Assembly (NCBI GenBank): GCA_031393885.1
Contig: JANMWG010000286.1
Location: 1-54,979, forward strand
Length of the DNA: 54,979 nt
Origin: Betaproteobacteria bacterium
Lineage (GTDB): Bacteria; Pseudomonadota; Gammaproteobacteria; Burkholderiales; Ga0077523
Direction of reading: 5' to 3'
The position numbers and the translations under genes were made by a program. Below, piece by piece: positions 20,148 through 54,979 of this stretch; within the stretch, counting starts at the first letter, position 1, and every line of letters begins with the position of its first letter. Under the pieces are notes generated by a model, which worked only from the letters and a program-made list of their open reading frames with translations, did no database searches and had not been told where the DNA came from.

Positions 20148-23692
<3,545 letters not shown>

Positions 23693-25357: not shown

Positions 25358-25383
25358 GGCTGGCGGGTCAATGCCATCGCGAA

Positions 25384-25413
25384 TTGACAATACCGGGCGA
25401 CCGCGTGTGTAAT
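25384..25413 (+). promoter_or_regulatory. Candidate sigma70 promoter of rpmH-rnpA-yidD-yidC-mnmE
   Basis: TTGACA (25384-25389), an 18-nt spacer, then TGTAAT (25408-25413). It lies about 35 nt upstream of the rpmH ATG, with a GGGGGA Shine-Dalgarno at 25436-25441. Confidence 0.5.
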
Positions 25414-25446
25414 ACACGGCTTTGCACAAGCTATGCGGGGGATGTG

Positions 25447-25581
25447 ATGAAACGTACTTATCAGCCGTCGGTAACCCGGCGCAAACGTACCCACGGGTTC
25501 AGGGTCAGGATGAAGACGAAGAGCGGCCGCGCCGTGATCAACGCGCGTCGAGCAAAGGGTCGCGCCAGGTTGGCGGTCTGA
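25447..25581 (+). CDS. rpmH: 50S ribosomal protein L34
   Basis: [44 protein letters not shown] (44 aa), found inside ORF 25384..25581. Confidence 0.97.
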
Positions 25582-25925
25582 CTTCACGGACTGGCGGCAG
25601 CGCCCAGGCGTTCGGTCGAGAACTCCGGGTCGTCGTCGGGGCCGATTTCAAGCGGGCGTTCGAATCGGGGGTCCGCAGAAGCGGCGAGTATTTCTCGGTG
25701 CATCGTGTCGCCAACGGCTTGTCCCGTCCGAGGCTGGGCATGGTGGTCGCCGTGCGGACTGCGGGATCCAGTGTTTCCAGGAACCGGATCAAGCGCTTGA
25801 TCCGAGAATCTTTCCGATTGCGACAACGGGACTTGGCGGGATGGGACTGGATAATCCGGGCACGACGAGGGGTTCCAGAGGCGGCGGTGAATGCGGCAAG
25901 GGCCGATTTAGCGCGCTTGTTGTAG
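25578..25925 (+). CDS. rnpA: ribonuclease P protein component
   Basis: It uses the frame of ORF 25422..25925. [17 protein letters not shown]...RPRLGMVVA...[17 protein letters not shown] aligns with the RnpA pattern (FPRELRLL...RNRIKRLTRESFRL in E. coli). The start is uncertain because only a CTG at 25578 lies between rpmH and the conserved region. Confidence 0.8.
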
Positions 25926-26146
25926 TTGAGCAAGTCGTCGCGCGCGTGCTCATCGGTACGATTCGTGGATATCGGCTACTCGTGAGTCCCTTGTTAGCGG
26001 CGTCGTGCCGGTTCCACCCATCTTGTTCAACCTACGCTATCGATGCGGTCCAGCGGTACGGGGCCGCAAAGGGCTCGCGGCTGGCCCTTCAGCGTATTTG
26101 CCGTTGTCACCCGTGGAATGCGGGCGGCCATGATCCGGTTCCTTGA
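25841..26146 (+). CDS. yidD: membrane protein insertion efficiency factor YidD
   Basis: RVLIGTIRGYRLLVSPLLAASCRFHPSCSTYAIDAVQRYGAAKGSRLALQRICRCHPWNAGGHDPVP. The conserved part begins near 25940. GTG at 25946 is an alternative start, while the ATG at 25841 overlaps rnpA. Confidence 0.82.
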   Translation: MGLDNPGTTRGSRGGGECGKGRFSALVVVEQVVARVLIGTIRGYRLLVSPLLAASCRFHPSCSTYAIDAVQRYGAAKGSRLALQRICRCHPWNAGGHDPVP

Positions 26147-26151
26147 ATCAA

Positions 26152-29167: not shown

Positions 29168-29194
29168 GCACGCATTTCTGGTTCATCGGGGCGT

Positions 29195-29210
29195 GGTTTC
29201 ACGTGAAACC
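29195..29210. promoter_or_regulatory. parS centromere-like site (copy 1)
   Basis: GGTTTCACGTGAAACC is a perfect 16-bp palindrome. Its central 14 bp are identical to the chromosomal parS consensus tGTTTCACGTGAAACa. Confidence 0.85.
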
Positions 29211-29224
29211 GACCTTGAGCGGTA

Positions 29225-29240
29225 GGTTTCACGTGAAACC
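29225..29240. promoter_or_regulatory. parS centromere-like site (copy 2)
   Basis: The identical 16-mer GGTTTCACGTGAAACC lies 30 bp (centre to centre) from copy 1, in the mnmE-mnmG spacer and about 2.6 kb upstream of parAB. Confidence 0.85.
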
Positions 29241-29309
29241 ATCTGTTGCCACGATCTCCGGGTCCGCCATCTCCGGTATCATCCCCCGACTTGCATCATG
29301 GGATACATC

Positions 29310-31241
29310 ATGTTGTTTCCAAAACGATTTGGCCTCATCGTCATCGGAGGGGGACATGCGGGTACTGAGGCCGCTCTGGCCGCAGCGCGCATGGGCTGCG
29401 AAACGCTGCTTCTTACCCATAGCCTCGAGACGCTTGGTCAGATGTCATGCAATCCGTCCATCGGCGGGATCGGAAAAGGCCATCTGGTCAAGGAGATCGA
29501 CGCACTTGGCGGCGCGATGGCTGCGGCGACCGACGAGGCAGGTATCCAGTTTCGAATCCTCAATGCCAGCAAGGGTCCGGCAGTGCGTGCCACCCGCGCC
29601 CAGGCCGACCGGGTTCTGTATCGACGGGCAATTCGTCGTCGGCTCGAGAATCAACCCAACCTGACACTTTTTCAGCAACCAGTCGATGATCTGCTTCTCG
29701 ACGGCGACAAGGTCGCCGGCGTCCAAACCCAGATGGGTTTGCGGTTCGAGGCGACTACCGTGGTGTTGACGGCAGGTACGTTTCTTGCCGGTTTGACTCA
29801 TGTGGGTCTGTCACATCATCCCGCTGGACGGGCTGGTGATCCGCCGTCAACGTCCTTGGCGCACCGGCTGCGCGAACTCGCCCTGCCGGCAGGGCGACTG
29901 AAAACCGGGACTCCTCCCCGGATCGACGGCCGGTCCGTGGACTTTTCGGTGATGGCCGAGCAGCCTGGTGATTGCCCGGTCCCGGTGTTTTCCTTTCTTG
30001 GCACGGCCACGCAGCATCCGGCGCAGCTTCCCTGCTGGGTCACACATACCAACGAACGCACCCACGACCTGATCCGTGGTGGCCTCGATCGCTCGCCGCT
30101 TTTTACCGGCATCATCGAAGGTGTCGGCCCGCGATATTGCCCGTCGGTCGAGGACAAGGTCGTGCGCTTTCCCGATCGGGGCTCGCACCAGGTCTTCCTC
30201 GAACCCGAGGGCCTCGATACCCATGAAATCTACCCGAACGGTATCTCCACGAGCCTGCCTTTCGACGTGCAACTGGCGCTGGTTCGATCGATCCGGGGCC
30301 TCGAGCGAGCGCACATCCTGCGTCCCGGCTACGCGATCGAGTACGACTACTTCGATCCTCGGGCGCTCAAGGCCTCTCTTGAATCGAAAGCCATTCGTGG
30401 CTTGTTCCTCGCGGGCCAGATCAATGGCACCACAGGATATGAAGAGGCGGCCGCCCAGGGATTGCTAGCCGGTGCCAATGCGGCGCTCCAGGCGCGGGGT
30501 CTGGCACCGTGGTGCCCGGGTCGGGGCGACGCTTATCTTGGTGTCATGGTCGATGATCTTGTCACCCGGGGCGTGACCGAGCCGTACCGTATGTTCACCA
30601 GCCGTGCCGAGTACCGACTGAGCCTTCGCGAAGACAACGCCGATCTTCGCCTGACGGAACCGGGCCGCCACCTCGGTCTCGTCGACGACGTCCGGTGGGC
30701 GCATTTCGAGCGGAAACGAGAGTTGATTGCGACTGAGCGCCAGAGGCTCAGGACGACATGGTTGAATCCGAGACTGCTGGACGCCGCCGTGTCCCGCCAA
30801 ATTTTTGGCGAGGGAGCGGAGCGCGATTGCACTCTTGAAGAATTGTTGCGTCGCCCCGAGATCGCATACCGGACTCTTGGTCGTTTGCCCGGCGCCGAGC
30901 TGCTGATCAACGACCCCGCTGCCGCGGACCAGGTCGAAACCCAGATCAAATACCAGGGCTACATCGAACGCCAGCAGGTAGAGATCACGAAATTGGCCCG
31001 CGTGGAACACCAGTTGTTGCCAGCAGCGCTCGACTATGGCGCGGTCCGGGGCCTGTCGAATGAAGTCCGCCAGCGATTGACCGAGCATCGCCCCGAGACG
31101 CTGGGGCAGGCATCCAGGATATCCGGGATAACACCCGCAGCGATATCGCTGCTTCTCGTTCATTTGCGGCGCATGACGGCAGGCCGCCATGCGGCTGATT
31201 CCGACAATGCTTTGCCCCCGGTCGTGGCCAGCGCTTCATGA
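29310..31241 (+). CDS. mnmG: tRNA uridine 5-carboxymethylaminomethyl modification enzyme MnmG (GidA)
   Basis: ORF 29298..31241. [29 protein letters not shown] (ATG at 29310) aligns with E. coli [25 protein letters not shown] at 29298 is an alternative start. Confidence 0.95.
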
Positions 31242-35684: not shown

Positions 35685-36221
35685 ATGGCCGAGATCAGCA
35701 CCATCGCCCGCCCATATGCCGAAGCTGCATTCGCGGTCGCGGAGAAGTCGGGCGATCTGTCCCGTTGGTCCGTGATGCTGGGTAATCTGGCAACCACTGC
35801 CGACCGTCCCGAAGTCCGCGAGCTGGTTGGCAATCCATTGGTGTCCAATGCCGATCTGGTGGGCATCTTCGCGGCGGCTTCGGGCGATACCTCGCCGGAG
35901 ACGCGCAACTTCCTCGGTATGCTGGTCGACAACGATCGTCTTGCCGCGCTGGAGTCGGTCCGCGACCAGTTCGATCTCCTCAAGCAGGAGCGCGAAGGCA
36001 TTGTGGACGCCGACATCGAATCGGCATTCCCGCTCGCGGGCGCCGAACTCGCCGATCTGGTTGCCAATCTGGAGCGCAAGTTCAGCCGCCGTATCAGGCC
36101 GACGGTCACCGTCGTCGCCGACCTCATCGGCGGTGTCACGATCGCCGTCGGTGATCAGGTCATCGACAGTTCGGTGCGCGGGCAACTCGCCGCGATGGCC
36201 ACCCGCCTCGCTTCAGCGTAG
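35685..36221 (+). CDS. atpH: F0F1 ATP synthase subunit delta
   Basis: 178 aa starting [19 protein letters not shown], located between atpF and atpA. Confidence 0.92.
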
Positions 36222-36267
36222 GCGCGCCACCCCGTACCCACCCAACACCACTCGAATCGGAATCGTC

Positions 36268-37812
<1,545 letters not shown>

Positions 37813-37886
37813 TCCGACGCTCGACCGGTCGCCATCGTCGATGGTGGCCGGTCACTTCGGCACGACATCCAGCCAGGAACCGACCC

Positions 37887-40215
<2,329 letters not shown>

Positions 40216-45781: not shown

Positions 45782-45908
45782 ACTGGCGCGAGGTTTGCGT
45801 AGTCTGCGCACCCGAGTTAAAAATCGATCAAAACGATAGCATTTGATTGCCAGTGATGCTCGAGTACGGTTAGGCTACAAGTAGTTTCGATACGGGGGTA
45901 TTCGGGGA

Positions 45909-47504
45909 GTGAAGACACGTCTGGCATGGGTGGCGCTCGCACTGGCATTGGGTCCGCTGTCGAGTCACGCCCAATCGACCGCCGTCCCGGAAGGGCCGCG
46001 TTTCGACATCGCTCGCTATGTCGTGGACGGCAATACCCTGCTGCCGGCCGCGCGCATCGACCGAGCACTCGCGCCGTTCACCGGCCAGAAGAAAGCTTTC
46101 GCTACCATCCAGCAGGCCCTCGCCGCCCTGACCAAGGTCTATGCCGACGCCGGCTATACCGCCGTTCAGGTCACCATTCCGGAGCAGGAGATACGTGGCG
46201 GCGACGTGCGTTTCCAGGTCCGGGAACTCAAGGTCGGCCAGGTCATAGTGGAAGGCAATACCCACTTCGGCGCTGACAACATCCGGCGGTCGCTGCCCGC
46301 GTTGGTGCCGGGCACCAGCCCGAACGTTGACCAGGTCGCGCGAAATCTTCTCACCGCCAACGAGAACGCTTCCAAGCAGACGCAGGTCCTGCTGCGGGCA
46401 GGTGACGCCGATGGAACGGTCGACGCCGTCGCCAAGGTGCGCGATCAGAGTCCGCTGCGATTCGGTTTCGGCGTCGACACCACCGGAACCTCCGCCACCG
46501 GCATCCTGCGCGCGAACGTGGCCGTGCAGCACTCCAATCTGTTCGACCGCGATCAGGCGCTCTCGGCGCAATACATCACGTCGCCCGCCTATCCCAATCG
46601 CGTGTCCATCATCGGTCTGGGTTACCGCATTCCGTTGTACCAGTTGGGCGACTCGGTCGAGTTCGCCTATGTGTATTCGGACGTCGACTCAGGCACGGTC
46701 AACACGTCTGCCGGCCGGTTCGGTATCAGTGGCAGCGGCAATTTCTACACGGCCCGCTACAACTTCAACCTGCCGCGCACCGCCGAATTCGACCAGCGCA
46801 TCATCTTCGGCGCCGATTGGCGCGAGTACCGCAACGACGTACGGTTCGCCGGCTCCAGCGGAAGCCTCGTCCCCGACCTCACGTTGCACCCGGTGAGCGT
46901 CGCCTGGTCCGGCCGATGGCATCAACAGGATCAGGACTTGTCCGGATTTCTCAGCGCCTATCACAACATCGCCGGCGGCAGCGATGGCGACCAGGCGGCC
47001 TTCAACCGACCGGGTGCCCGGCGCGGCGCCGCGACCAACTACACGTTGTATCGCCTGTCGGCCAGCTACACCCGGCAGTTGCCCCGGGACTTCCAGTTGC
47101 GCGCCGCGGCCAACGCCCAATTGACCAACGACATGCTGGTGGCGGGAGAACAGTTCGGCCTCGGTGGCATGGATTCCGTGCGTGGCTTCACGGAGCGCGA
47201 GATCGCCAACGATCGCGGCCTGCGCACCAGCCTCGAAGGCTATTCGCCCGATTTCGGTGCCCGTCTTCATGCCGGCGTCAGCGCGCGCGCGCTGATCTTC
47301 TTCGACTACGGGCAGCTCAAGCGCAACGGCGCGCTGCCCAGCGAGAAACCGGGCGAAGCGGTCAGTAGCGCGGGTGTCGGACTGCGGCTGTTCTACGGCA
47401 ACAACATCAGCCTGCGCCTCGACTACGGCACGGTCATGCAGCCCGGCGGCTTGCAGGGCCGTGGTGACCAGCGCCTGCAAGGCGCATTTGCGTGGTTGTT
47501 CTGA
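45909..47504 (+). CDS. Two-partner secretion outer-membrane transporter (TpsB; ShlB/FhaC/HecB family)
   Basis: 531 aa with a GTG start and the signal peptide MKTRLAWVALALALGPLSSHAQS. It has the POTRA-like region FDIARYVVDGNTLL...VRELKVGQVIVEGN, a beta-barrel with a terminal aromatic residue (...GAFAWLF), and the conserved GGMDSVRGF motif. Confidence 0.9.
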   Translation: MKTRLAWVALALALGPLSSHAQSTAVPEGPRFDIARYVVDGNTLLPAARIDRALAPFTGQKKAFATIQQALAALTKVYADAGYTAVQVTIPEQEIRGGDVRFQVRELKVGQVIVEGNTHFGADNIRRSLPALVPGTSPNVDQVARNLLTANENASKQTQVLLRAGDADGTVDAVAKVRDQSPLRFGFGVDTTGTSATGILRANVAVQHSNLFDRDQALSAQYITSPAYPNRVSIIGLGYRIPLYQLGDSVEFAYVYSDVDSGTVNTSAGRFGISGSGNFYTARYNFNLPRTAEFDQRIIFGADWREYRNDVRFAGSSGSLVPDLTLHPVSVAWSGRWHQQDQDLSGFLSAYHNIAGGSDGDQAAFNRPGARRGAATNYTLYRLSASYTRQLPRDFQLRAAANAQLTNDMLVAGEQFGLGGMDSVRGFTEREIANDRGLRTSLEGYSPDFGARLHAGVSARALIFFDYGQLKRNGALPSEKPGEAVSSAGVGLRLFYGNNISLRLDYGTVMQPGGLQGRGDQRLQGAFAWLF

Positions 47505-47526
47505 ACTGAACCAACGGGAGCCGATC

Positions 47527-50500
47527 ATGGCGCGACCTACCCCCCGAATCCTGCTGCGGCGCAAGCTGCTTTGCATGGCCATCGCTGCCGGTTTTCCAAT
47601 GGCGGTGAACGCCAATCCAACCGGTGCGCACGTGACGTCGGGCAGCGCCGGCTTCACCACCACCGGTGGCATGCTGACCATCAGCAACTCACCGGGTGCG
47701 ATCATCGAGTATGCGTCGTTCTCGATCGGGCTTGGCGAGCACACCCACTTCCAGCAACTGTCGGCCGAAAGCCAGGTGCTCAATCGCGTCGTCGGCGGCA
47801 ATCCCAGTCTGATCCTCGGCGCGCTCACCTCGAATGGTCGGGTGTTCCTGATCAACCCCAACGGTATCGCCTTCGGCCCGGGATCGACGGTCGACGTCGC
47901 CGGGCTCGTCGCATCCACGCTCAACCTGTCCAACGCCGATTTCCTGGCAGGCCGGTTGTCGTTCTCGGGCCAGCCCGGCGCCGGTTCCATCCGCAACGAT
48001 GGCACGCTCCAGGCCGCCTCCGGTGGCCGCATCTATCTGGTGGCACCGACCATCGAGAACCATGGCGTCATCGCCGCGCCCGATGGTTCCGTGGTGCTCG
48101 CCGCCGGCCACAGCGTCACCCTGATCGACAGCAAGCGTCCCGACGTGCAGGTCCAGTTGACCGCCGGCGCCGATCAGGCGGTCAATGTCGGCCGCATCGT
48201 GGGCGGCCATGTCGGCATCTACGCCGCTACCATCCGCCAGGGTGGTTCGATCAGCGCGACCATGGCGGTCGCGGGCGAGAACGGGTCGGTCATCCTGAAG
48301 GCGACAAGCAGTGTAATCACCGACCCCGGCAGCAGCATCGTCGCCGGCGGTGCCGGCGGTGGCAGCGTCGAGATCTCCGCCGACTTCTTCTCGCACGCCG
48401 GGTCCATCAACACCGACGGCGGCATCATCCGCATTGCCGCTGGCAGTGTCTTTCAAAGCGGTGCGATCCGGGCAGACGGTGCCTTCGGCGGCGAGATCAC
48501 CGTGCGCTCGTCCGGCAATGTCTGGCAGACCGAGTCATCGATCCTGTCGGCAAATGGTGTTAGTCGCGGCGGCGACATCCGCGTCGATGCCGGGGCCGGG
48601 CAGCTTTACAGTTCCGGTCGGTTCGAAGCCATGGCGTCGGCCGGAAACGGTGGCCGCATCACCTTGACCGGCGACCGGATCGCGCTGGTCGCGGCAAGCG
48701 CCGACTCTAGCGGTACGACCGGCGGGGGCGCGATCCGCATCGGCGGCGATTTTCATGGTGCCGACGCGGGCGCCCCGAATTCGCAGTCGGTCTACGTCAG
48801 CGACGCGGTGTCATTGCGCAGCGATGCCACCGTGCGTGGTGATGGCGGCACCGTCGTCGCGTGGTCCGATGGGTCGACGCGATTCGCGGGCTCGATCTCG
48901 GTTCGCGGCGGCGCCAATGGCGGCAATGGCGGAATGGCCGAAGTCTCGGGTGCGGGCGACCTTCGCTACTCAGGCAATACCGACGCCACTGCCGCGCGGG
49001 GAGCAACGGGCTCGCTGCTGCTCGACCCCAAGAACATCATCATCGACGACTCGGCGCCGAGCGGAGGCAGTGGCTACATCGTCGGCGATTTCATCGACCC
49101 CAATCCCACGGCGGGTGGCAACTTCGGGTCCTCGTTCAACACCAGTCTGCTGTTCAGCGGCAACCTGCTGGTGCGGGTACCCGACGCAACCGTCGGCAGT
49201 TTCGCCAACGCCGGCGCGACCTATCTGTTCAACGGCACCACGCGTGCACTGATCGGCGCGCTGACCGGCAGCAAGGCGAACGACCGGGTCGGCGCGAACG
49301 GCACTTTCTTCCTGAACAACGGCAACTACGTCATCCGCAGCGAAGACTGGAACGATGGTCGTGGTGCACTCACGTTCGGCACGCCAGGCTCGCTGGTTTC
49401 GGGTGTGGTCGGCGCCGGCAACAGCCTGGTCGGCGGTACAGCGGGCGACCACATCGGCAGCGGCGGCATCGGCCTGGTCGGCGGCAACACGATCTGGATC
49501 GGCAGTCAGCAGTGGACCAATCCGGAAACCACGGCTGCCAATGCCGGTGCCTTCACGATTCGCAATACCGACGCCGGCCTGACCGGTGTGGTGTCGGCGC
49601 TCAACAGCCTGGTCGGCACGCATGCCGGCGATCGGGTCGGCGATGCGCCGATCGTGGTTCTGTCCAACAGCACCAGTGCCGGCCGGGTCCTCATCAGCCC
49701 CAAGTGGAATGCCGAGCGCGGCGCAGTCACCTTTATCAACGTCGACAGTCCGGTCGTCGGGGCCGTCGACGCCACCAACAGTCTGATCGGTTCGACCGCA
49801 GGCGATGGCGTCAACATGCGCGTGGAAATTCTCCAGGGCGATGGCTATGCGGTGGTCTGGCCGAAGTGGAGCAACCCGGCCAGGGACGCGACCGGCGCCG
49901 GCGCCATCACCTTCAATTTCAGCAACACCGGACACAGCGGCGTGGTCGGCGCCGACAACAGCCTGATCGGCAACGCGCCCGGCAGCATGAACGAGGCGCG
50001 CATCGTCACGCTCACCGGCGGCTTCGTCGACAACTACCTGGTGGCCAATCCCGGCTGGAGCGATGTCGGCGCGGGGCAGACCGCCAATGGTGCGGTGACC
50101 TTCGTCTCCAGAAACACCGGAATCGCCGGTGAGGTCACTGCCGCCAACAGCCTGATCGGGGGCAGCGGCAATCAGCGTATCGGCGACGATGTTCGGGTGC
50201 GCGATGACGGCAACTACCTCGTGGTGGCCCCGAACTGGACCAACGAGGTCAACGGCGTCGCCAACGCCGGCGCTGTCACTTTCGGCAACGGCGTGACCGG
50301 TGTGGTCGGCGTGGTCACTGCCGCCAACAGTTTCGTCGGCATATCCGCCGGCGACCGGATCGGCAGCGGTGGCATCTATAACGTCGCCGCCGGAAACTTC
50401 GTGATCGCCAGCCCGGAAGTGTCCAGTGGCAGAGGTTTGGTCGTCTGGGCAAATGGTGCTACCGGCGTCACCGGTACGCCGGATTCCATTGTTCCCGGCC

Positions 50501-53500
50501 TGCGGGGATCGACCCCGGGTGACCGCGTCGGCAGTTTCGTCACGGTACTTTCCAACGGCAACTACGTCGTGCACTCGAGCGAATGGAGTTTCGACGACGG
50601 GAATGGAACAGTACTCGGCCAGGTCGGTGCGATGACCTGGGTGGCCGGTGTCACCGGCTTCATCGCGGGTACGTCGAACAACATCGGCGTCGTCAGCCGC
50701 GCCAACAGCCTCACGGGCGCCGCCAGCGGCGCTCGCTTCGGTTCCGGCGGCGTGCAGCAGTTGTCCAGCGGCAACTATCTCGTCCTGAGTCCCGACTGGA
50801 CCGACGACGCGTCGAATCCGGAGAAAGGCGCCGTCACCTACCTGCTGGGCGATAGTGGCAATGTTCCCGCGGGAGGCGCCGCGGGAATCGCCTCCGCAAG
50901 CAACAGCCTGGTCGGAAAGTTCGCCAACGACCGCATCGGCGCCGATATCGCGGGCGGGCTCGCCGTGAGTCAAACGTTCGGCGTGACCAATCCCGGCATC
51001 GTCGTGCGCAGTCCACGCTGGAACTCGGAAACAGGCGCCGTTACCTGGATGAGCGCCCTGGACGGAAGCCTCCCTGGACAGACAACGATTGGTGGTGTCG
51101 TCGATGTCGGCAACAGCATTGTCGGCACGGCGGCCGGTGATCGGGTCGGCGAGGAGTTTCGCGATCTCTTCAACGGCTCTTACCTGATCGGCAGCCCGCA
51201 CTGGAGCGATGCCGCACGTGACATCCAGCGCGTGGGTGCCGTGACCCTATTCCGTTCGGGAACGGGCGAGCGCGTTGCCGACAATGCCACCTTCGGCACG
51301 CTTTCCAGCGTCAACAGCTTCGTCGGCAATGCGACCGACGAAGCTATCGGCCATGTGCAGAACGACATTCACCAGGTCTTCGTGGGTGGCGGTTCGCGCT
51401 TCCTGCTGTACTCCCCCGATTTCAATGGCGGCAACAGCGCGCTGACCTGGCTCGGCAACGGCACCACGGCGGTGACCGGCATCATCGGCGCCACCAATAG
51501 TCTGGTCGGTGCCGGCGTCGGCAACAACATCAATACGGTCAACGACACCATCGTGGTGTCCAGCCCGGGCTGGAATGGCGGCCGCGGCGCAGTCACCTTC
51601 ATCGCGGCCGACGGCGCCATCTTCGGCACCGGCGGCAACACCTTCGGCACCATCGGCGCCACCAACAGCATCGTCGGGTCGTCGCCCGGCGACGGGGAGT
51701 TGTCGCCCGTTGACAGCATTGCCTACCAGGGCAGTTTCTTCGCCAACCCGGGCGGCAATGTCGCCGTGGTCGGGTCCACCAGTTGGAACGGCAATCGCGG
51801 CGCGATCAGGTTCGTCGACGCGGGCGGCGGTTCGGGTGTGATCGGTCCGACCGACAGCCTCGTAGGCGCCAATGCCGGCGATCGCGTCGGATCCGGCGGC
51901 TTCACCGCCTATGGCGCGGGCAGCAACCAGCAGCGCGTGGTGTTGAGTCCTGACTGGAACGGCGCCCGTGGCGCCATGACCTACTACACCAAGGGCACCC
52001 TCGATGCCGCGTTCGCTGCGGCGCACGGCCTGGTCGGTAGCACCGCGAACGATCGCGTCGGCAGCAACGGCATCGAAGGCGTCGGCAGCAACGGCGCGTC
52101 GGTATTGAAGAGTCCCAACTGGAAAGGTAGCGCGGGTGCCGTCAGCTATCTGGGCAATGGCAGCACCACCGTCACGGGGGTGGTGTCGGCCGCCAACAGC
52201 ATCGTCGGCGGCTCGGCAAACCAGCAGGTCGGCAGAAACGGCGTGCTCACGCTGAGCGCGAACGCCTACCTGGTCCTCAGTTCGCACTGGACCGACAACG
52301 CCTCGGCCGATCTCGGCGCCATCACCTGGGTCGACGCGACGACCGGTCGGCCCCTCGACGGCAATGGCGTCGTCAGCCGGGCGAACAGCCTGGTCGGCCC
52401 GGTCGCCGGCGCCCGGTATGGGGAGCGATCCTCGGAGATCGGCACCGACGTGCACGCGCTCTTCAACGGCAACCAGTTCTACCTATACGCACCAACGGTT
52501 CCGTCGGCATCGGCGGCGGTCAGCGGCGGCCGCCTGATGCTGGTGGATGTGTCGACCACCGGCGGCACAGCGATCGGCCGACTTTCCTTCACCAATCAAC
52601 CCGGTGGCGACGTCACGATCCGCGGCATCGATGTCGCGACCGCGCTCGCCACGGCCAACCTGGTGCTCGAAGCCAACAACGACATCACGCTGGTCACCGG
52701 TACCAACATCACCGTCGGTGGTACCCGCGCGCACGCGTTGACTCTGCGAGCCGGCCGCGGGGTGCTACTCAACGGCAACATCACCACCGCCAACGGCGAC
52801 CTCACCGTCATCGCCAACGAGCAGATCAACACCGGTAGTGCCGCGACCGGCGTGGTGGCGGCGAATCGTGACCAGGGCCGGGGCGATATCCAGATGGCGG
52901 CAGGCACGGTCATCGATGCCGGCACCGGCGATGTGCGCCTGGAGATTCACGATGGGCGTCGCGCCGCCAACGCGAGCGCGGGTTTCAACCCCGGTGGCGA
53001 CATCGCGGCGCGCGATATCCGCGGCGCCAACATCGCGCTGCTCAACCGCAGCCGTCTCCAGGACAGTATCGGTATCGGTATCGGCTCGGTGTTCCTCGAT
53101 CCGGCCACCGCCATCACCACCACCGGAGCCGGTGGGTTGCTGTCGATCAGTGCGCCGTCGCGGATCACGGCAAATGGACTGGTGCGGGCACCGGGCGGAC
53201 GCATCGAGCTGCGCGCCGGCGTGCTCGAGTTCGGACCGTCGTTCTCCACCGGCGGCATCGCCTACGACGCGAAGGACATCCTGATCGCTCCCGAGGGGAC
53301 GACCGGCACGGTCCTGCAAGTCGGTGGTGTCCTCAATGATCCTCCGCAAGGCATGCTCTACGTGAGTCAGGCCGCGCTCGGGCACTTCGCCACCACCGGC
53401 TCGCTGGTGCTGGGCGATGTCGCCACGACCGCGGTGGGTTTGGGCAATACCGGTGGCGGCGTCGCGCTCGGCACCGGTTCCCACGGTGCCGAAGGCATCG

Positions 53501-54393
53501 GCGGGCGAGTGATCGTCACCGGCGCCACCGGCAGCGTCATCACGGTTGCTGGGCCGGTGCAATCGACCGCAGCGAGTCTGGTCATGACGGCCGGCCGGCT
53601 CGTGGTGGAGGTGGATGGGTCGATCCTCAGCGGCGGCAGCTTGTCGCTGGTCGCCCGGAACGGTATCGACATCCACGGCAATGTCGCCGCCGAGCGCAAC
53701 CTCGAGATCGCTACGCCGGGTGCCCTGAGCGTCCGCGACGCCCGCGTCACGTCCAGCTTCGGCAGCATCGCCATCAACGTCGGATCGTTGGACATCCTCG
53801 CGTCCCGTGCCGGCGAACAAGGTACGGAAATCGTCGCCAGCGGCGGGCGTGTCGTCGCCAATGTCGCTGGCGACGTGAACATCGTCGCCGGAAGCCGATC
53901 CAACTCGTTCGCCCGGATCGGCAGCCGGTCGGCCGAATGTGTGATGAACATCGGCGGCGATCTGGTTCTCGAGGGAGGAACGGGCAGCGACACCTTTGCC
54001 AGCGTCTTCGGCCATCCGGACGTGGGCACTGCGGCCAGTCCCATGAGCGTCGGCGGCAACATCGTCCTCACCGCCGGTGCCGGCGAGCGCGCTTTCGCGC
54101 GGATCGAAGCGGCCCAGCCCGACACGATCCACCTTGCTTTCCCGACGCGCAGCAGCGGTGGCTATACCGTCAACGGAAAGGCGGTGGTGGCCGACGGCGA
54201 CAGCGGCTTCTTTGCTGGAGGACAGGTGGCGGTGCTCGACCGCAATCTGCTCATCACTTACGGTCAGGGGAGCGCCCCTCCCTTCGACCCGACCGGCGCG
54301 AACGTGATCGCGGCCGAGCGTGGGGCACAGTTCCCGTTCCGGCGAGGGCCGCGTCCCGGGGAAGACGACCCCTCCTTGCCGAGCTGCCGCTGA
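47527..54393 (+). CDS. Large TPS-secreted exoprotein (TpsA) with an atypical repeat-rich passenger
   Basis: ORF 47374..54393. ATG at 47527 is preceded by GGGAG, giving 2288 aa. The signal peptide is MARPTPRILLRRKLLCMAIAAGFPMAVNA. The TPS/haemagglutination-activity domain shows VLNRVVGGNPSLILG and GRVFLINPNGIAFGPG. Next comes a Gly-rich module, GGDFHG...GDGGTVVAWSD...GGNGGMAEVSG...GSLLLDPKNIII. This is followed by the repeat array and a C-terminal beta-helix-like region. Confidence 0.9.
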   Translation: MARPTPRILLRRKLLCMAIAAGFPMAVNANPTGAHVTSGSAGFTTTGGMLTISNSPGAIIEYASFSIGLGEHTHFQQLSAESQVLNRVVGGNPSLILGALTSNGRVFLINPNGIAFGPGSTVDVAGLVASTLNLSNADFLAGRLSFSGQPGAGSIRNDGTLQAASGGRIYLVAPTIENHGVIAAPDGSVVLAAGHSVTLIDSKRPDVQVQLTAGADQAVNVGRIVGGHVGIYAATIRQGGSISATMAVAGENGSVILKATSSVITDPGSSIVAGGAGGGSVEISADFFSHAGSINTDGGIIRIAAGSVFQSGAIRADGAFGGEITVRSSGNVWQTESSILSANGVSRGGDIRVDAGAGQLYSSGRFEAMASAGNGGRITLTGDRIALVAASADSSGTTGGGAIRIGGDFHGADAGAPNSQSVYVSDAVSLRSDATVRGDGGTVVAWSDGSTRFAGSISVRGGANGGNGGMAEVSGAGDLRYSGNTDATAARGATGSLLLDPKNIIIDDSAPSGGSGYIVGDFIDPNPTAGGNFGSSFNTSLLFSGNLLVRVPDATVGSFANAGATYLFNGTTRALIGALTGSKANDRVGANGTFFLNNGNYVIRSEDWNDGRGALTFGTPGSLVSGVVGAGNSLVGGTAGDHIGSGGIGLVGGNTIWIGSQQWTNPETTAANAGAFTIRNTDAGLTGVVSALNSLVGTHAGDRVGDAPIVVLSNSTSAGRVLISPKWNAERGAVTFINVDSPVVGAVDATNSLIGSTAGDGVNMRVEILQGDGYAVVWPKWSNPARDATGAGAITFNFSNTGHSGVVGADNSLIGNAPGSMNEARIVTLTGGFVDNYLVANPGWSDVGAGQTANGAVTFVSRNTGIAGEVTAANSLIGGSGNQRIGDDVRVRDDGNYLVVAPNWTNEVNGVANAGAVTFGNGVTGVVGVVTAANSFVGISAGDRIGSGGIYNVAAGNFVIASPEVSSGRGLVVWANGATGVTGTPDSIVPGLRGSTPGDRVGSFVTVLSNGNYVVHSSEWSFDDGNGTVLGQVGAMTWVAGVTGFIAGTSNNIGVVSRANSLTGAASGARFGSGGVQQLSSGNYLVLSPDWTDDASNPEKGAVTYLLGDSGNVPAGGAAGIASASNSLVGKFANDRIGADIAGGLAVSQTFGVTNPGIVVRSPRWNSETGAVTWMSALDGSLPGQTTIGGVVDVGNSIVGTAAGDRVGEEFRDLFNGSYLIGSPHWSDAARDIQRVGAVTLFRSGTGERVADNATFGTLSSVNSFVGNATDEAIGHVQNDIHQVFVGGGSRFLLYSPDFNGGNSALTWLGNGTTAVTGIIGATNSLVGAGVGNNINTVNDTIVVSSPGWNGGRGAVTFIAADGAIFGTGGNTFGTIGATNSIVGSSPGDGELSPVDSIAYQGSFFANPGGNVAVVGSTSWNGNRGAIRFVDAGGGSGVIGPTDSLVGANAGDRVGSGGFTAYGAGSNQQRVVLSPDWNGARGAMTYYTKGTLDAAFAAAHGLVGSTANDRVGSNGIEGVGSNGASVLKSPNWKGSAGAVSYLGNGSTTVTGVVSAANSIVGGSANQQVGRNGVLTLSANAYLVLSSHWTDNASADLGAITWVDATTGRPLDGNGVVSRANSLVGPVAGARYGERSSEIGTDVHALFNGNQFYLYAPTVPSASAAVSGGRLMLVDVSTTGGTAIGRLSFTNQPGGDVTIRGIDVATALATANLVLEANNDITLVTGTNITVGGTRAHALTLRAGRGVLLNGNITTANGDLTVIANEQINTGSAATGVVAANRDQGRGDIQMAAGTVIDAGTGDVRLEIHDGRRAANASAGFNPGGDIAARDIRGANIALLNRSRLQDSIGIGIGSVFLDPATAITTTGAGGLLSISAPSRITANGLVRAPGGRIELRAGVLEFGPSFSTGGIAYDAKDILIAPEGTTGTVLQVGGVLNDPPQGMLYVSQAALGHFATTGSLVLGDVATTAVGLGNTGGGVALGTGSHGAEGIGGRVIVTGATGSVITVAGPVQSTAASLVMTAGRLVVEVDGSILSGGSLSLVARNGIDIHGNVAAERNLEIATPGALSVRDARVTSSFGSIAINVGSLDILASRAGEQGTEIVASGGRVVANVAGDVNIVAGSRSNSFARIGSRSAECVMNIGGDLVLEGGTGSDTFASVFGHPDVGTAASPMSVGGNIVLTAGAGERAFARIEAAQPDTIHLAFPTRSSGGYTVNGKAVVADGDSGFFAGGQVAVLDRNLLITYGQGSAPPFDPTGANVIAAERGAQFPFRRGPRPGEDDPSLPSCR
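49201..52552 (+). repeat. About 18 tandem degenerate ~62-aa coding repeats inside tpsA
   Basis: The recurrent unit is GAVTF-x(5-15)-G(V/I)V-x3-NS(L/I/F)(V/I)G-x4-(G)DR(V/I)G-x(2-6)-(L)-x-NGNY(V/L)V-xSP-xW. I placed 17 NSLVG-type anchors near 49420, 49603, 49777, 49957, 50146, 50326, 50480, 50704, 50902, 51112, 51313, 51495, 51664, 51853, 52025, 52194 and 52384. Their spacing is 154-224 nt. Confidence 0.85.
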
Positions 54394-54979
54394 TGCGCGC
54401 GCCTGCCCACATCGTCGCCGCAATCGCGCTCCTGCTGGCCGCGGTGCCGGGCTTCGCGCAGCAGGCCGGCAAGGCCGTTACCGTGACCGGCGTGGTCTCG
54501 ATCGAACGTCCGGATGGGGTCGTGCGCCTGGCCGCACCAGGCGCCGCGCTGGCGGCGGGCGAGACGGTGCGCACCGAAGCGGCGAGCCAGGCGCGACTCG
54601 ATCTCGCCGATGGCACGCAGATCGCGATCCGGCCGTCGAGCGCGTTCAAGCTCGAACGCTACCGGTTCGCGGTCGATCGCCCGGCCGAAGACAACGTCGC
54701 GCTGCGTCTGCTCAAGGGCGGACTGCGCACACTGACCGGCCTGATCGGCAAGCGCAAGCCGACGGCGTTCGAGTTCAGCACCACCACCGCCACCATCGGC
54801 GTGCGCGGCACCGACTTTGTCGCGCGGCTGTGTGGCGACGATTGTGCGGTCGAGAACAAGCGCGTCGCCGGCGCCCCTGTGCCGCCGGCACCGAACTACG
54901 CCGGCAAGGTGTTTTCGCTCAACGGAACCTTGCGGGCGGCGCGCACCGGCGGTGTGGTCGCGCTCAAGGCTGGCGACAC
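54393..54979 (+). CDS. Secreted FecR-domain protein, 5' part; the gene continues past the window end
   Basis: Not in the ORF track because it has no stop before the window end. The ATG at 54393 shares its A with the tpsA TGA (TGATG). My translation reads MRAPAHIVAAIALLLAAVPGFAQQAGKAVTVTGVVSIERPDGVVRLAAPGAALAAGETVRTEAASQARLDLADGTQIAIRPSSAFKLERYRF...VALRLLKGGLRTLTG...TTATIGVRGTDFVARL... and has no stop for 195 codons. This follows the FecR (PF04773) pattern. Confidence 0.75.
   Translation, partial: MRAPAHIVAAIALLLAAVPGFAQQAGKAVTVTGVVSIERPDGVVRLAAPGAALAAGETVRTEAASQARLDLADGTQIAIRPSSAFKLERYRFAVDRPAEDNVALRLLKGGLRTLTGLIGKRKPTAFEFSTTTATIGVRGTDFVARLCGDDCAVENKRVAGAPVPPAPNYAGKVFSLNGTLRAARTGGVVALKAGD

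What the first reader, a model, noticed from the sequence alone, without database searches (positions are those of the whole stretch)
45782..54979. Two-partner secretion pair translationally coupled to a secreted FecR-domain protein: candidate uncharacterised surface/periplasmic signalling module
Seen in sequence: a ShlB/FhaC-type TpsB (45909-47504) is followed 22 nt later by a 2288-aa TpsA (47527-54393). The TpsA TGA overlaps (TGATG) the ATG of a third ORF, which the six-frame track misses because it runs off the window. That ORF encodes a signal peptide followed by a clear FecR-type domain, and a second similar stretch (GKVFSLNGTLRAARTGGVVALKAGD) begins just before the window ends. The ~125 bp upstream of tpsB (45815-45890) have about 40% GC, which stands out locally and suggests a regulated promoter. 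Established knowledge: TPS pairs usually stand alone or sit with CDI toxin/immunity genes or activation genes, whereas FecR domains are periplasmic signal-sensing modules. Inference: the exoprotein and a periplasmic sensor are co-expressed as one unit, possibly feeding a downstream transducer beyond the window. From memory, TpsA proteins carrying the GGDFHG...GNGG.(A/V)EVSG...LLLDP module occur next to FecR and CHASE2-sensor genes in other genomes with no experimentally assigned function. I cannot verify that here.
Basis: partly seen in the sequence, partly recalled or inferred. Interest (0 to 1): 0.75.

Follow-up and report, generated by a model that had tools for sequence, protein, structure and literature searches.

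The report
Two-partner adhesin with FecR-like periplasmic anchor
A three-gene unit found in hundreds of betaproteobacterial species encodes an outer-membrane pore, a giant surface filament and a periplasmic FecR-like protein, and conserved cysteines at the extreme ends of the last two suggest that a disulfide-linked plug holds the filament on the cell, an anchoring mode I found no description of.

Summary
tpsB (45909-47504), tpsA (47527-54393, 2288 aa) and a third ORF starting in a TGATG overlap at 54393 are all present. The third ORF has a signal peptide and a Pfam FecR domain. Its full-length product (P0121) is 451 aa, with two tandem FecR domains and a C-terminal domain.

The trio is strongly conserved. 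About 70 of 74 informative loci from different species keep TpsA and/or TpsB next to this FecR subfamily, in three different gene orders. A CHASE2 cyclase is adjacent in only 8 of 79 loci. In the two orthologous loci the downstream genes are unrelated to each other.

Nearly every FecR-linked TpsA ends in a lone cysteine 1-5 residues from its C-terminus, after a disordered linker of at least 37 residues. Nearly every partner FecR protein also ends in a cysteine, on a disordered tail. Ten TpsAs without a FecR neighbour lack a lone terminal Cys. A Cys-less FecR subfamily is not TPS-linked.

The FecR domain matches the LapA/MpIBP retention module (PDB 5ix9).

Best reading, which is inferred and not shown: the FecR-like protein is a periplasmic stopper, joined by a disulfide to the TpsA tail threaded through TpsB. 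This would be a trans version of the HMW1/CdrA cysteine hook. A signalling role through CHASE2 remains possible.

The parts
45782..45908 (.). Intergenic region upstream of tpsB, with an AT-rich core at 45815-45890. It is a candidate promoter or regulatory region.
   Evidence: GC is 49.6% overall and 39.5% in the core, against a window mean of 63.8% (lowest 0.13% of 76-bp windows). No sigma-70 consensus or terminator match was found.
45909..47504 (+). tpsB, an Omp85-family TpsB transporter of 531 aa with no cysteine.
   Evidence: Pfam POTRA_2 (59 bits) and ShlB (84 bits). It has a signal peptide, and the L6-loop motif VRGF is at residue 424. It is 96% identical to the L008 orthologue.
47527..54393 (+). 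tpsA, a 2288-aa exoprotein. The coordinates include the stop codon.
   Evidence: ATG preceded by GGGAG. Translation. Pfam TPS plus DUF5650 x17. 92% identical to L008.
47611..48300 (+). TPS secretion domain (residues 29-258), with NPSL at residue 92 and NPNGI at residue 110.
   Evidence: Pfam PF05860 at 97.8 bits and NCBIfam TIGR01901. Motif positions.
48742..49029 (+).
   Evidence: Positions. A looser form of its core is common in this TpsA class and is not specific to FecR-linked proteins: 36 of 42 linked and 4 of 8 unlinked TpsAs have it.
49324..52626 (+). Approximate extent of the DUF5650 repeat array (period about 60 aa, with the motif NS[LF][VI]G).
   Evidence: Pfam PF18888 at 460 bits in 17 stretches. 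Motif spacing of 56-70 aa.
53701..54261 (+). Conserved C-terminal beta-helix domain of TpsA (G.PDV…SGGY.VNG…SGFFAGG…ITYG), which has no Pfam model.
   Evidence: 135 representative relatives found, with the match at their C-terminal ends. Conserved columns. The AF2 model is confident over most of this stretch.
54262..54390 (+). Disordered C-terminal tail of TpsA ending …DDPSLPSCR. The terminal Cys2287 codon is at 54385-54387.
   Evidence: AF2 pLDDT is 38-52 over the last ~40 residues. A Cys lies within the last 5 residues in 64 of 73 FecR-linked TpsA ORFs and in 68 of 68 aligned representatives. The linker is at least 37 aa in 71 relatives.
54393..54979 (+). 5' part (195 of 451 codons) of the tandem-FecR gene. 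It comprises the signal peptide (54393-54458), FecR domain 1, and the start of FecR domain 2 from about 54897.
   Evidence: Pfam FecR. The full-length P0121 is identical over the 195 aa and has two FecR stretches at 78 bits. AF2 gives pLDDT 91.8.
54804..54812 (+). Invariant R138-G139-T140 in FecR domain 1. It has the same sequence context as the G/T self-cleavage site of FecR and FoxR.
   Evidence: Invariant columns. The cleavage site of E. coli FecR is G181/T182 according to PMC12036975. Cleavage was not tested here.
54831..54845 (+). The C147-x3-C151 pair of FecR domain 1, a probable intradomain disulfide.
   Evidence: Both are invariant in 118 tandem-FecR proteins. Codons were read directly.

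Best explanation
The three genes encode one cell-surface display machine.

TpsB is the outer-membrane pore and TpsA is a long beta-helical/DUF5650 filament. TpsA is secreted N-terminus first. Its last ~40 residues are a disordered tail ending in a single cysteine (…LPSCR).

The third protein is exported to the periplasm by a Sec signal peptide. It folds into two FecR-type beta-domains plus a C-terminal domain, and it ends in its own flexible, cysteine-bearing tail (…LSCGLR).

I propose that the two terminal cysteines form an intermolecular disulfide in the periplasm. The folded ~45-kDa FecR-like protein cannot pass through TpsB, so it would act as a covalently attached stopper. The TpsA tail would stay threaded through the pore and the filament would stay on the cell.

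This would be a trans version of two known anchors. One is the cis 'cysteine hook' of HMW1, HxuA and CdrA. The other is the cis retention module of LapA/MpIBP, which is homologous to part of the FecR domain.

Shown here: gene content, conservation of the trio, the conserved terminal cysteines and disordered tails, and the fold and sequence similarity. Inferred: the periplasmic location of the TpsA C-terminus, the disulfide itself, and retention as its consequence. Release by reduction or proteolysis, and signalling to CHASE2 proteins, are speculation.
For: 1. Linkage. 69 of 79 species-level loci found through the FecR protein alone have TpsB and/or a TpsA-like giant ORF beside it on the same strand. 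Three gene orders occur (B-A-F, A-B-F and A-F-B). The loci are mostly betaproteobacterial (Rhodocyclales, Gallionellaceae/Nitrosomonadales, Burkholderiales, Chitinimonas), plus MAGs labelled Gammaproteobacteria and one Gemmatimonadales MAG. L054 adds one more, and most of the remaining loci are cut by contig ends.

2. TpsA terminal Cys.
- 64 of 73 FecR-linked TpsA ORFs with a complete 3' end have a Cys within the last 5 residues. The exceptions are mostly 5' fragments of split genes.
- 59 of those 64 have no other Cys in the last 60 aa.
- Four full-length TpsAs have it as their only Cys.
- In 68 aligned representatives of the TpsA C-terminal domain the terminal Cys is present in 68 of 68, and 53 of 67 relatives have a single Cys in the last 230 aa.

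3. FecR terminal Cys. 111 of 120 single-domain relatives end in a Cys within 6 residues of the C-terminus, and in 23 it is the only Cys. In 118 tandem relatives C448 is invariant, and the other four Cys form two C-x3-C pairs, so the count is odd. Both partners carry the terminal Cys in 58 loci.

4. Controls.
- The Cys-less FecR subfamily (P0113) is not next to TPS genes.
- None of 10 plasmid TpsAs lacking a FecR neighbour has a lone terminal Cys. Two of them have a close Cys pair, which is hook-like.
- The one sampled plasmid TpsA with a lone terminal Cys (Variovorax) does have a FecR neighbour.
- Fisher P = 8e-8 to 8e-10.

5. Structure.
- The AF2 model of P0121 has pLDDT 91.8, with the last ~12 residues including C448 at low confidence.
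- In the AF2 model of the TpsA C-terminus, a confident beta-helix is followed by a ~40-residue low-confidence tail.
- The linker is never shorter than 37 aa.

6. Similarity to a known plug. The A2 profile matches PDB 5ix9, the MpIBP 'cell surface anchoring domain', at E = 2.7e-7. Foldseek gives probability 1.0, TM 0.77 and rmsd 0.9 A. There is a weak NCBIfam retention_LapA hit. 5ix9 was the template used to model the LapA retention module (bioRxiv 10.1101/198937).

7. Precedent. HMW1 and HxuA are anchored by a C-terminal periplasmic disulfide-containing domain (PMC5422565; PMC8151025). CdrA is held in CdrB by a cysteine hook (PMC7616799).
Against: - No experiment or complex model shows the disulfide. 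AF2 was run on single chains only.
- In this subclade TpsA has a second conserved Cys (C2138) 149 residues upstream. An intramolecular loop is therefore possible here, although that position is Cys in only 10 of 68 relatives. With 5 Cys in FecR2 and 2 in mature TpsA, one Cys stays unpaired under either model.
- L033, L058 and L078 have a FecR with a terminal Cys but no TPS gene nearby.
- L103 has a TpsA with a terminal Cys and no FecR or TpsB within 4 kb downstream. Its upstream side is cut.
- In L064, one FecR copy that follows a TpsA lacks the terminal Cys.
- In Variovorax the Cys tail sits on a separate 108-aa secreted protein, and the FecR-domain protein there has no Cys. The FecR domains proper may therefore do something else.
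- The counts are not corrected for phylogeny. They rest on my own ORF calls and home-made HMMs, and only 10 negative-control TpsAs were examined.
Confidence: 0.5

Rival explanations
1. The FecR-like protein is a periplasmic signal sensor or relay. It would couple the state of the TPS system, or an external ligand, to an inner-membrane transducer such as a CHASE2 cyclase or kinase, encoded next door or elsewhere. This is compatible with the anchor model and could be layered on top of it.
For: - A CHASE2-adenylate/guanylate cyclase is adjacent in 8 of 79 loci. In four Limnobacter loci it lies directly after the FecR gene on the same strand.
- Secreted FecR-domain proteins are recurrent genomic partners of CHASE2 sensors elsewhere. 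Examples are Burkholderia BiofilmReg (RR, LysM/FecR protein, CHASE2 kinase; PMC5192318) and S. meliloti smc02177 beside cyaD1 (PMC5498481).
- In canonical FecR and PupR the same fold relays a signal from an outer-membrane protein (Foldseek hits 6ovk and 4m0h; PMC12036975).
Against: - 71 of 79 loci lack a CHASE2 gene within the fetched flanks (up to 10 kb each side; many contigs are shorter).
- The two orthologous loci have unrelated genes downstream: DAO oxidoreductase in one, M48 and Wadjet in the other. Upstream in the window is housekeeping.
- There is no ECF sigma factor, no anti-sigma domain and no transmembrane helix.
- On its own this model does not explain the matched terminal cysteines.
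Confidence: 0.2
2. The FecR-like protein is a dedicated periplasmic chaperone or gatekeeper. It would bind the TpsA C-terminal domain or the TpsB POTRA domains non-covalently, or through a transient mixed disulfide. Its role would be to control folding, timing or completion of secretion rather than to anchor the product permanently.
For: - There is tight genetic coupling with stop/start overlaps.
- The protein is predicted to be periplasmic.
- Other TPS loci carry third genes needed for function, such as BcpO and HMW1C (PMC5422565; PMC8151025).
- The TpsA C-terminal domain is conserved.
Against: - A chaperone role does not predict an invariant Cys at the extreme end of a disordered tail on both partners.
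- It does not predict a minimum linker length.
- It does not predict similarity to a retention plug.
Confidence: 0.15
3. An ordinary cis cysteine hook. In this lineage TpsA C2138 and C2287 would form an intramolecular disulfide that anchors TpsA as in HMW1 and CdrA. The FecR-like protein would use its terminal Cys for homodimerisation or something unrelated.
For: - C2138 is conserved in the seven closest TpsAs.
- Cys-pair hooks occur in TpsAs without FecR, namely Aquabacterium …CPPNDPDCAR and Methylomagnum …CTTEEVRRGKEGCGG.
Against: - The C2138 position is Cys in only 10 of 68 family members and is otherwise hydrophobic, as expected for a beta-helix core position.
- It lies within the confidently modelled stretch, 149 residues from the tail.
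- Many family members have a single Cys in the whole TpsA or in the whole FecR protein.
- This model does not explain why the FecR terminal Cys tracks TPS linkage.
Confidence: 0.1
4. The adjacency is incidental synteny, and the FecR gene has no functional link to the TPS pair.
For: Some neighbours, such as thioredoxin-2, BKACE and methylmalonyl-CoA mutase, are conserved only within lineages. This shows that local synteny exists in these genomes.
Against: - The linkage survives three different gene orders and several orders of bacteria, while all other neighbours change.
- There are stop/start overlaps.
- The terminal cysteines are matched on the two partners.
Confidence: 0.02

Closest known systems
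Surface-anchored TpsA proteins with a C-terminal cysteine hook (H. influenzae HMW1/HMW1B and HxuA/HxuB; P. aeruginosa CdrA/CdrB)
   Same: These are type Vb secretion systems in which the TpsA C-terminus stays on the periplasmic side. A disulfide-dependent bulky element there stops it from leaving the TpsB pore, so the adhesin stays on the cell (PMC5422565, PMC8151025, PMC7616799).
   Different: In those systems the stopper is in cis: two nearby cysteines in the same TpsA form a small loop. Here the family-wide feature is one lone terminal Cys in TpsA plus a separate secreted FecR-like protein with its own terminal Cys. That makes it a proposed stopper in trans, encoded by a third gene. No LapG/LapD genes were seen nearby.
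Retention module of LapA-type RTX adhesins (P. fluorescens LapA, M. primoryensis MpIBP region I; PDB 5ix9)
   Same: This is a small beta-domain that folds on the periplasmic side and plugs the outer-membrane channel so a giant adhesin remains surface-bound. It is detectably homologous to the N-terminal half of the FecR domains here (E = 2.7e-7, TM 0.77).
   Different: The retention module is at the N-terminus of the adhesin itself. It works with a type I system and a TolC-like pore, and it is removed by the LapG protease. Here the related domains are on a separate protein in a type Vb system.
FecR/PupR/FoxR-type anti-sigma regulators of cell-surface signalling (Pfam PF04773)
   Same: The same Pfam domain and fold (Foldseek 6ovk PupR CCSSD, 4m0h). 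The domain is periplasmic and works with an outer-membrane beta-barrel protein. The conserved G-T lies in the same motif as the self-cleavage site.
   Different: Here there is no cytoplasmic anti-sigma domain, no transmembrane segment and no adjacent ECF sigma factor or TonB-dependent transducer. The protein has a cleavable Sec signal peptide, tandem domains and a C-terminal Cys tail.
Secreted FecR-domain proteins paired with CHASE2 sensors (Burkholderia BiofilmReg LysM-FecR with a CHASE2 kinase; S. meliloti SMc02177 beside CyaD1)
   Same: These are stand-alone exported FecR-domain proteins of unknown mechanism encoded next to envelope signalling genes. A subset of the TPS-FecR loci (8 of 79) also carries a CHASE2 cyclase.
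   Different: Those systems have no TPS genes. This window and its orthologues have no CHASE2 gene nearby. I could not check whether those proteins carry a terminal Cys.
Three-gene TPS loci with accessory proteins (BcpAIOB BcpO lipoprotein; HMW1C/EtpC glycosyltransferases)
   Same: A third, co-transcribed gene is needed for or modifies TpsA function (PMC5422565; PMC8151025).
   Different: The protein families and cellular locations are unrelated. None of them is a FecR-fold periplasmic protein.

Membership tests
Two-partner secretion (type Vb) system | TpsB: an Omp85-type barrel with ShlB-type POTRA domains and the conserved L6 VRG[FY] motif | tested here: met
   Pfam POTRA_2 at 59.3 bits and ShlB at 83.9 bits. 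VRGF at residue 424.
Two-partner secretion (type Vb) system | TpsA: a signal peptide plus an N-terminal TPS domain with NPNL-like and NPNGI motifs | tested here: met
   PF05860 at 97.8 bits and TIGR01901 at 71.6 bits. NPSL at residue 92 and NPNGI at residue 110.
Two-partner secretion (type Vb) system | TpsB-dependent export of TpsA | not testable with these tools
   This needs secretion assays.
FecR family (Pfam PF04773) | Domain match above the curated threshold, and the FecR/PupR periplasmic fold | tested here: met
   44.8 bits for the fragment and 78.1 bits in two stretches for P0121, against a cutoff of 24. Foldseek hits to 4m0h, 4m0n and 6ovk at probability 1.0.
FecR-type anti-sigma factor (cell-surface signalling) | N-terminal cytoplasmic anti-sigma domain and transmembrane helix, with a cognate ECF sigma factor and TonB-dependent transducer | tested here: not met
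   The protein starts with a cleavable signal peptide followed directly by the FecR domain. No sigma or TBDT genes flank it in the window, L008 or L009.
FecR-type anti-sigma factor (cell-surface signalling) | Self-cleavage at a conserved Gly-Thr | tested here: inconclusive
   R-G-T is invariant in both domains and resembles the FecR G181/T182 context. I made no residue-level alignment to FecR, and cleavage cannot be tested here.
LapA/MpIBP retention module | Sequence and fold of the plug domain | tested here: met
   5ix9 matches at E = 2.7e-7 by profile search. Foldseek gives probability 1.0, TMt 0.77 and rmsd 0.9 A over 62 columns. The NCBIfam retention_LapA hit is 25 bits, below its cutoff of 50.
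LapA/MpIBP retention module | Located at the N-terminus of a type I-secreted RTX adhesin, followed by a LapG cleavage site | tested here: not met
   The domain is on a separate 451-aa protein in a type Vb locus. No LapG/LapD or T1SS genes were seen nearby.
Cysteine-hook anchored TpsA (HMW1/HxuA/CdrA type) | Two closely spaced C-terminal cysteines forming an intramolecular loop | tested here: not met
   59 of 64 linked TpsAs have only one Cys in the last 60 aa, and 53 of 67 relatives have only one in the last 230 aa. In this TpsA the only other mature Cys (C2138) is 149 residues away, at a position that is not conserved across the family.
Cysteine-hook anchored TpsA (HMW1/HxuA/CdrA type) | C-terminus retained in the periplasm and adhesin retained on the cell | not testable with these tools
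   This is inferred from the disordered tail of at least 37 aa and the terminal Cys.
FecR-CHASE2 signalling pair | A CHASE2-domain sensor gene adjacent to the FecR-domain gene | tested here: not met
   The CHASE2 HMM found nothing in the window, L008 or L009. It found hits in 8 of 79 related loci.

The most novel reading that the evidence does not exclude
The TpsA filament, its tail threaded through TpsB, and the disulfide-tethered FecR-like protein together form a transmembrane tether that reports on events at the cell surface. Pulling on or cleaving the filament, or a change in periplasmic redox state that reduces the disulfide, would move or free the FecR-like module. The module would then act on periplasmic CHASE2 domains of cyclases or kinases, in the way FecR's homologous domain relays signals from FecA. 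That would make this a type Vb-based outside-in contact, force or redox sensor, and a long-sought input for CHASE2 receptors.
Probability: 0.15. Interest if true: 0.85.

Novelty: new variant of a known kind. Interest (0 to 1): 0.66.

Why it matters
How TpsA adhesins are kept on the cell or released is known for only a few pathogens (HMW1, HxuA, CdrA, FhaB).

Here a third, conserved gene offers a simple and testable mechanism for a large, unstudied class of TPS systems. The scan of species-representative genomes found at least 593 matches to this FecR subfamily, and the protein search found more than 2000 protein clusters. Most come from environmental Betaproteobacteria, including iron oxidisers and denitrifiers.

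The finding also links three ideas that have been studied separately: the cysteine hook of type Vb adhesins, the retention module of type I adhesins, and the FecR fold of cell-surface signalling. It suggests that stand-alone secreted FecR-domain proteins, including those next to CHASE2 sensors, may act as plugs or tethers on outer-membrane pores.

A disulfide tether would also make adhesin display sensitive to redox state, which matters for organisms living at oxic-anoxic interfaces.

Tried and rejected
- Looking up the window's own contig by the exact TpsB protein gave only a 2.2-kb Logan contig. Downstream context therefore had to come from orthologues L008 and L009.
- The word-indexed search with the TpsA C-terminal 300 aa returned one fragment only. 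The exhaustive representative search was needed instead.
- tblastn of the FecR fragment against plasmids found nothing at E <= 1e-6. The Variovorax FecR neighbour was seen only through the record's annotation.
- A search for further conserved partners such as proteases, Dsb proteins or LapG/LapD found only lineage-specific housekeeping neighbours.
- No sigma-70 promoter or terminator consensus was found upstream of tpsB or downstream of the FecR gene in L008.
- There were no Rfam or tRNA hits in the window.
- Garnerone 2018 on NsrA (PMC5952392) is not held in the library. I could not check whether the NsrA outer-membrane partner of CHASE2 cyclases is related.
- L103 and L104, TpsAs chosen by their C-terminal domain, were uninformative because the contigs are cut.
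- The intramolecular C2138-C2287 hook was considered and downgraded.

Full report
**1. What is in the window**

- tpsB runs from 45909 to 47504. It starts with GTG and encodes 531 aa with a signal peptide and Pfam POTRA_2 plus ShlB. The L6 motif VRGF is at residue 424.
- After 22 nt containing GGGAG, tpsA starts at ATG 47527 and ends at 54393.
- TpsA is 2288 aa. It has a TPS domain (PF05860, 97.8 bits; NPSL at residue 92, NPNGI at residue 110) and 17 DUF5650 repeats.
- The tpsA stop codon TGA shares its A with an ATG at 54393.
- The ORF that starts there encodes a Sec signal peptide (…AVPGFA/QQ, no lipobox Cys) and a FecR domain (PF04773, 44.8 bits against a cutoff of 24). It runs off the window after 195 codons.
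- The stretch 45815-45890 upstream of tpsB is 39.5% GC in a 63.8% GC window. No sigma-70 consensus was found there.

The surrounding genes are housekeeping. They include a YpfJ-type Zn peptidase, an AMP-binding enzyme, an M20 peptidase and ATP synthase. Further upstream lie mnmG, mnmE, yidC, dnaA, dnaN and gyrB, which is the chromosomal origin neighbourhood.

**2. The complete third gene and what lies beyond the window**

A scan of species-representative genomes with an alignment of FecR relatives returned two orthologous MAG contigs.
- L008 is collinear with the window at 93% nucleotide identity over 9.4 kb. Protein identities are TpsB 96%, TpsA 92% and FecR 93%.
- L009 is 92% identical over the FecR fragment.

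In both contigs the third gene encodes 450 aa. The TGATG overlap is conserved in L008. A database protein, P0121 (451 aa), is identical to the window's 195 residues and is listed with no source, which is how the tool marks the window's own product.

These are followed by a ~140-aa beta-rich C-terminal domain, and the protein ends …LSCGLR.

The downstream genes differ between the two orthologous contigs. L008 has a DAO-type FAD oxidoreductase. L009 has an M48 fragment followed by convergent Wadjet jetD and jetC. The unit therefore ends with the FecR gene. No transducer follows it in this lineage.

**3. Conservation of the trio**

79 loci from different species were kept. I called ORFs in all of them and scanned them with HMMs built from the window's TpsB, TPS domain and FecR domain and from a CHASE2 cyclase found in L005. 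Giant ORFs cut by locus ends were identified by BLAST to the TpsAs.

Results:
- 69 of 79 loci carry TpsB and/or a TpsA-like ORF next to the FecR gene on the same strand.
- L054 adds one more, because the cut ORF upstream of its FecR gene ends …VGMCGRPA.
- Five loci (L011, L013, L048, L065, L070) are uninformative because the contig ends within about 0.6 kb upstream of the FecR gene.
- Three loci (L033, L058, L078) are true exceptions.

Three gene orders occur:
- B-A-F, found in Rhodocyclales, Chitinimonas and this window.
- A-B-F with a tandem FecR, found in Gallionellaceae and Nitrosomonadales.
- A-F-B.

Independent look-ups of four further FecR relatives gave the same picture (L002, L006, L089, L090). 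All other neighbours are lineage-specific housekeeping genes.

A CHASE2-adenylate/guanylate cyclase gene is adjacent in 8 of 79 loci. In four Limnobacter loci it directly follows the FecR gene. In L030 it is divergent, and in Hylemonella it is convergent.

**4. The new observation: matched terminal cysteines**

*TpsA.*
- Listing the C-termini of the FecR-linked TpsAs showed that almost all end with a Cys 1-5 residues from the end. Examples are …LPSCR in this window, …LPVCR, …VAQCT, …ELTCK and …AVCK. The Cys is preceded by a low-complexity tail rich in D, E, K, P, G and T.
- 64 of 73 TpsA-like ORFs with complete 3' ends have it. Of the nine exceptions, five are 5' fragments of split genes, two have the Cys at position -6, one is a second TpsA outside the module, and one is probably frameshifted.
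- 59 of the 64 have no other Cys in the last 60 residues. Four full-length TpsAs have no other Cys at all.

*FecR partner.* It shows the mirror image.
- 111 of 120 single-domain relatives end C-x(1-5), typically C-x-V-[QR]. 80 of them have three Cys (a C-x3-C pair plus the terminal one), and 23 have the terminal Cys only.
- In 118 tandem relatives C147, C151 and C448 are invariant and C290 and C294 nearly so. That gives two C-x3-C pairs plus one odd terminal Cys.
- Both partners carry the terminal Cys in 58 loci.

*TpsA C-terminal domain.*
- An exhaustive search of 1.84 billion representative proteins with the TpsA C-terminal 300 aa found 135 relatives. The match lies at their C-terminal ends.
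- In the 68 aligned sequences (the window plus 67 relatives) the terminal Cys is present in 68 of 68.
- 53 of the 67 relatives have one Cys in the last 230 residues.
- The position of this TpsA's only other mature Cys (C2138) is Cys in just 10 of 68 and is otherwise hydrophobic.
- The distance from the end of the conserved beta-helix domain (…ITYG) to the terminal Cys is never below 37 residues, with a median of 56. It is 41 residues here.

**5. Controls**

- A FecR subfamily with no cysteine at all (P0096, P0099, P0113) is not next to TPS genes. P0113 lies between a methyltransferase gene and a sigma-54 two-component pair.
- I sampled TpsAs on plasmids down the whole similarity ranking. Ten with no FecR gene in the locus, by annotation and by my HMM, have no lone terminal Cys.
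  - Caballeronia (two), Pannonibacter, Ralstonia, E. coli, Afipia and Burkholderia THE68 have none.
  - Nitratireductor has an internal pair.
  - Aquabacterium (…CPPNDPDCAR) and Methylomagnum (…CTTEEVRRGKEGCGG) have a close terminal pair, the classical hook pattern.
- The one sampled plasmid TpsA that does end in a lone Cys (Variovorax, …KKMYCN) is followed by a FecR gene.
- Fisher tests give P = 8e-8 for any terminal Cys and 8e-10 for a lone terminal Cys. These are not corrected for phylogeny, and the control set is small.

**6. Structure and relatives with known function**

- AF2 on P0121 with the 118-sequence alignment gives pLDDT 91.8 and pTM 0.86. It is an all-beta three-domain protein, and only the last ~12 residues, which carry C448, are of low confidence.
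- AF2 on the TpsA C-terminal 300 aa gives a confident beta-helix followed by a ~40-residue low-confidence tail.
- Foldseek against the PDB returns FecR-type anti-sigma periplasmic domains (4m0h and 4m0n; 6ovk, the PupR CCSSD). It also returns 5ix9, the 'cell surface anchoring domain' of the Marinomonas ice-binding adhesin, at probability 1.0, TM 0.77 and rmsd 0.9 A.
- A profile search of PDB sequences finds 5ix9 at E = 2.7e-7. NCBIfam gives a sub-threshold retention_LapA hit.
- 5ix9 is the template used to model the LapA retention module. That module is the N-terminal plug that stalls a type I adhesin in its TolC-like pore (bioRxiv 10.1101/198937).
- For type Vb systems, reviews describe a C-terminal periplasmic, disulfide-containing anchor in HMW1 and HxuA (PMC5422565; PMC8151025) and a cysteine hook that holds CdrA in CdrB (PMC7616799).
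- None of the papers found links FecR domains to TPS systems.

**7. Most likely mechanism**

*Shown:*
- A conserved tpsB-tpsA-fecR unit.
- A periplasm-directed FecR-fold protein related to a known periplasmic plug.
- Lone, conserved cysteines on disordered termini of both TpsA and the FecR-like protein, which track each other across families.

*Inferred:*
- After N-to-C secretion, the TpsA tail remains in the TpsB pore with its last residues in the periplasm, as in HMW1 and CdrA.
- There the terminal Cys forms an intermolecular disulfide with the terminal Cys of the folded FecR-like protein.
- That protein cannot traverse TpsB, so it retains the filament on the cell.

I put about 0.5 on this specific mechanism and about 0.9 on the weaker claim that the FecR-like protein is a dedicated partner of the TPS pair.

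*Caveats:*
- In this subclade a C2138-C2287 loop cannot be excluded.
- Cysteine parity leaves one Cys unpaired under either model.
- In Variovorax the Cys tail and its C-terminal module are on a separate small secreted protein, while the FecR-domain protein has no Cys. The FecR domains may therefore have a further role.
- A few loci break the pattern (L033, L058, L078, one gene in L064, L103).

**8. Rival readings**

FecR-domain proteins pair with CHASE2 sensors in Burkholderia BiofilmReg (PMC5192318) and in S. meliloti (PMC5498481). CHASE2 cyclases in S. meliloti depend on an outer-membrane protein, NsrA (PMC13001267 and PMC7529298). Eight TPS-FecR loci include a CHASE2 cyclase. However, most loci lack one, including the orthologues of this window.
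- A chaperone or gatekeeper role, an ordinary cis hook and plain synteny are less well supported. The details are in the rival explanations.

**9. Novelty and verdict**

All the parts belong to known families: type Vb secretion, the FecR fold and the DUF5650 repeat. Disulfide-dependent anchoring of TpsAs and retention plugs are both established ideas. What appears new is their combination: a third gene that supplies a FecR-like retention module in trans, marked by matched terminal cysteines, in a large and uncharacterised class of mostly betaproteobacterial TPS systems. I rate it a new variant of a known kind. It has moderately high interest because the hypothesis is sharp and cheap to test, and because it may explain what stand-alone secreted FecR-domain proteins do.

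Noticed in passing
window 20148-31241 and 35827-40215: The window carries the chromosomal origin neighbourhood: gyrB, dnaN and dnaA on the minus strand, then yidC, mnmE and mnmG, then ATP synthase genes. AT-rich pockets at about 23636-23760 and 24091-24190 flank dnaA and could hold oriC/DnaA-box elements.
   Followed up: no
window 54804-54812; P0121 residues 138-140 and 282-284: Both FecR domains keep an invariant R-G-T in the motif where E. coli FecR (G181/T182) and FoxR self-cleave. If the domains self-cleave, the tether would be held together non-covalently and could come apart under force.
   Followed up: partly
L091 (Variovorax sp. PBL-E5 plasmid 3) 14284-19438: The family is split here. 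The order is ShlB, TpsA (…KKMYCN*), a 156-aa FecR-only protein with no Cys, and a separate 108-aa secreted protein. That last protein carries the family's C-terminal module and the …DCEVR* tail. The Cys-tail module is therefore separable from the FecR domain.
   Followed up: partly
window 53701-54261; P0242-P0375: The last ~190 structured residues of TpsA (G.PDV…SGGY.VNG…SGFFAGG…ITYG) form a conserved domain with no Pfam model. It has 135 relatives among 1.84 billion representative proteins.
   Followed up: partly
L015 and L011: The MAGs that hold the orthologous loci L008 and L009 each carry a second, paralogous tpsA/tandem-fecR locus. Its FecR protein is about 50% identical to the window's FecR fragment, and in L015 the TpsA ends …ALPGECR.
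   Followed up: no
L017-L081 (Gallionellaceae/Nitrosomonadales loci), e.g. L081 11442-11909: A thioredoxin-2 gene (Zn-ribbon Trx) lies convergent just downstream of the tandem FecR gene in 12 loci. It is probably cytoplasmic and merely syntenic, but a redox protein next to a proposed disulfide tether is worth a look.
   Followed up: no
L009 4163-7254: Wadjet anti-plasmid genes (jetD, and a jetC-like gene with an SbcC Walker B motif) lie convergent downstream of the orthologous module in one MAG but not in the other.
   Followed up: no
L033, L058, L078; L103: Some loci break the pattern. Three FecR genes with a terminal Cys have no TPS gene nearby, and in Sulfurisoma (L033) one sits beside a second, 610-aa FecR-domain protein. 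One TpsA with the C-terminal domain and terminal Cys has no FecR or TpsB in the 4 kb downstream.
   Followed up: partly
L087/L088 (P0113): A Cys-free branch of the same FecR family sits between a PCMT-type methyltransferase gene and a convergent sigma-54 response regulator/PAS kinase pair, with no TPS genes. Its role is unknown.
   Followed up: no
L093 and L097 (Aquabacterium, Methylomagnum plasmids): These TpsAs have no FecR neighbour and end in a close Cys pair (…CPPNDPDCAR*, …CTTEEVRRGKEGCGG*). They are candidate new examples of the HMW1/CdrA-type cysteine hook.
   Followed up: no
window 15005-16213: A 402-aa ORF with an N-terminal LysM domain and no other Pfam match at E <= 1e-5.
   Followed up: no
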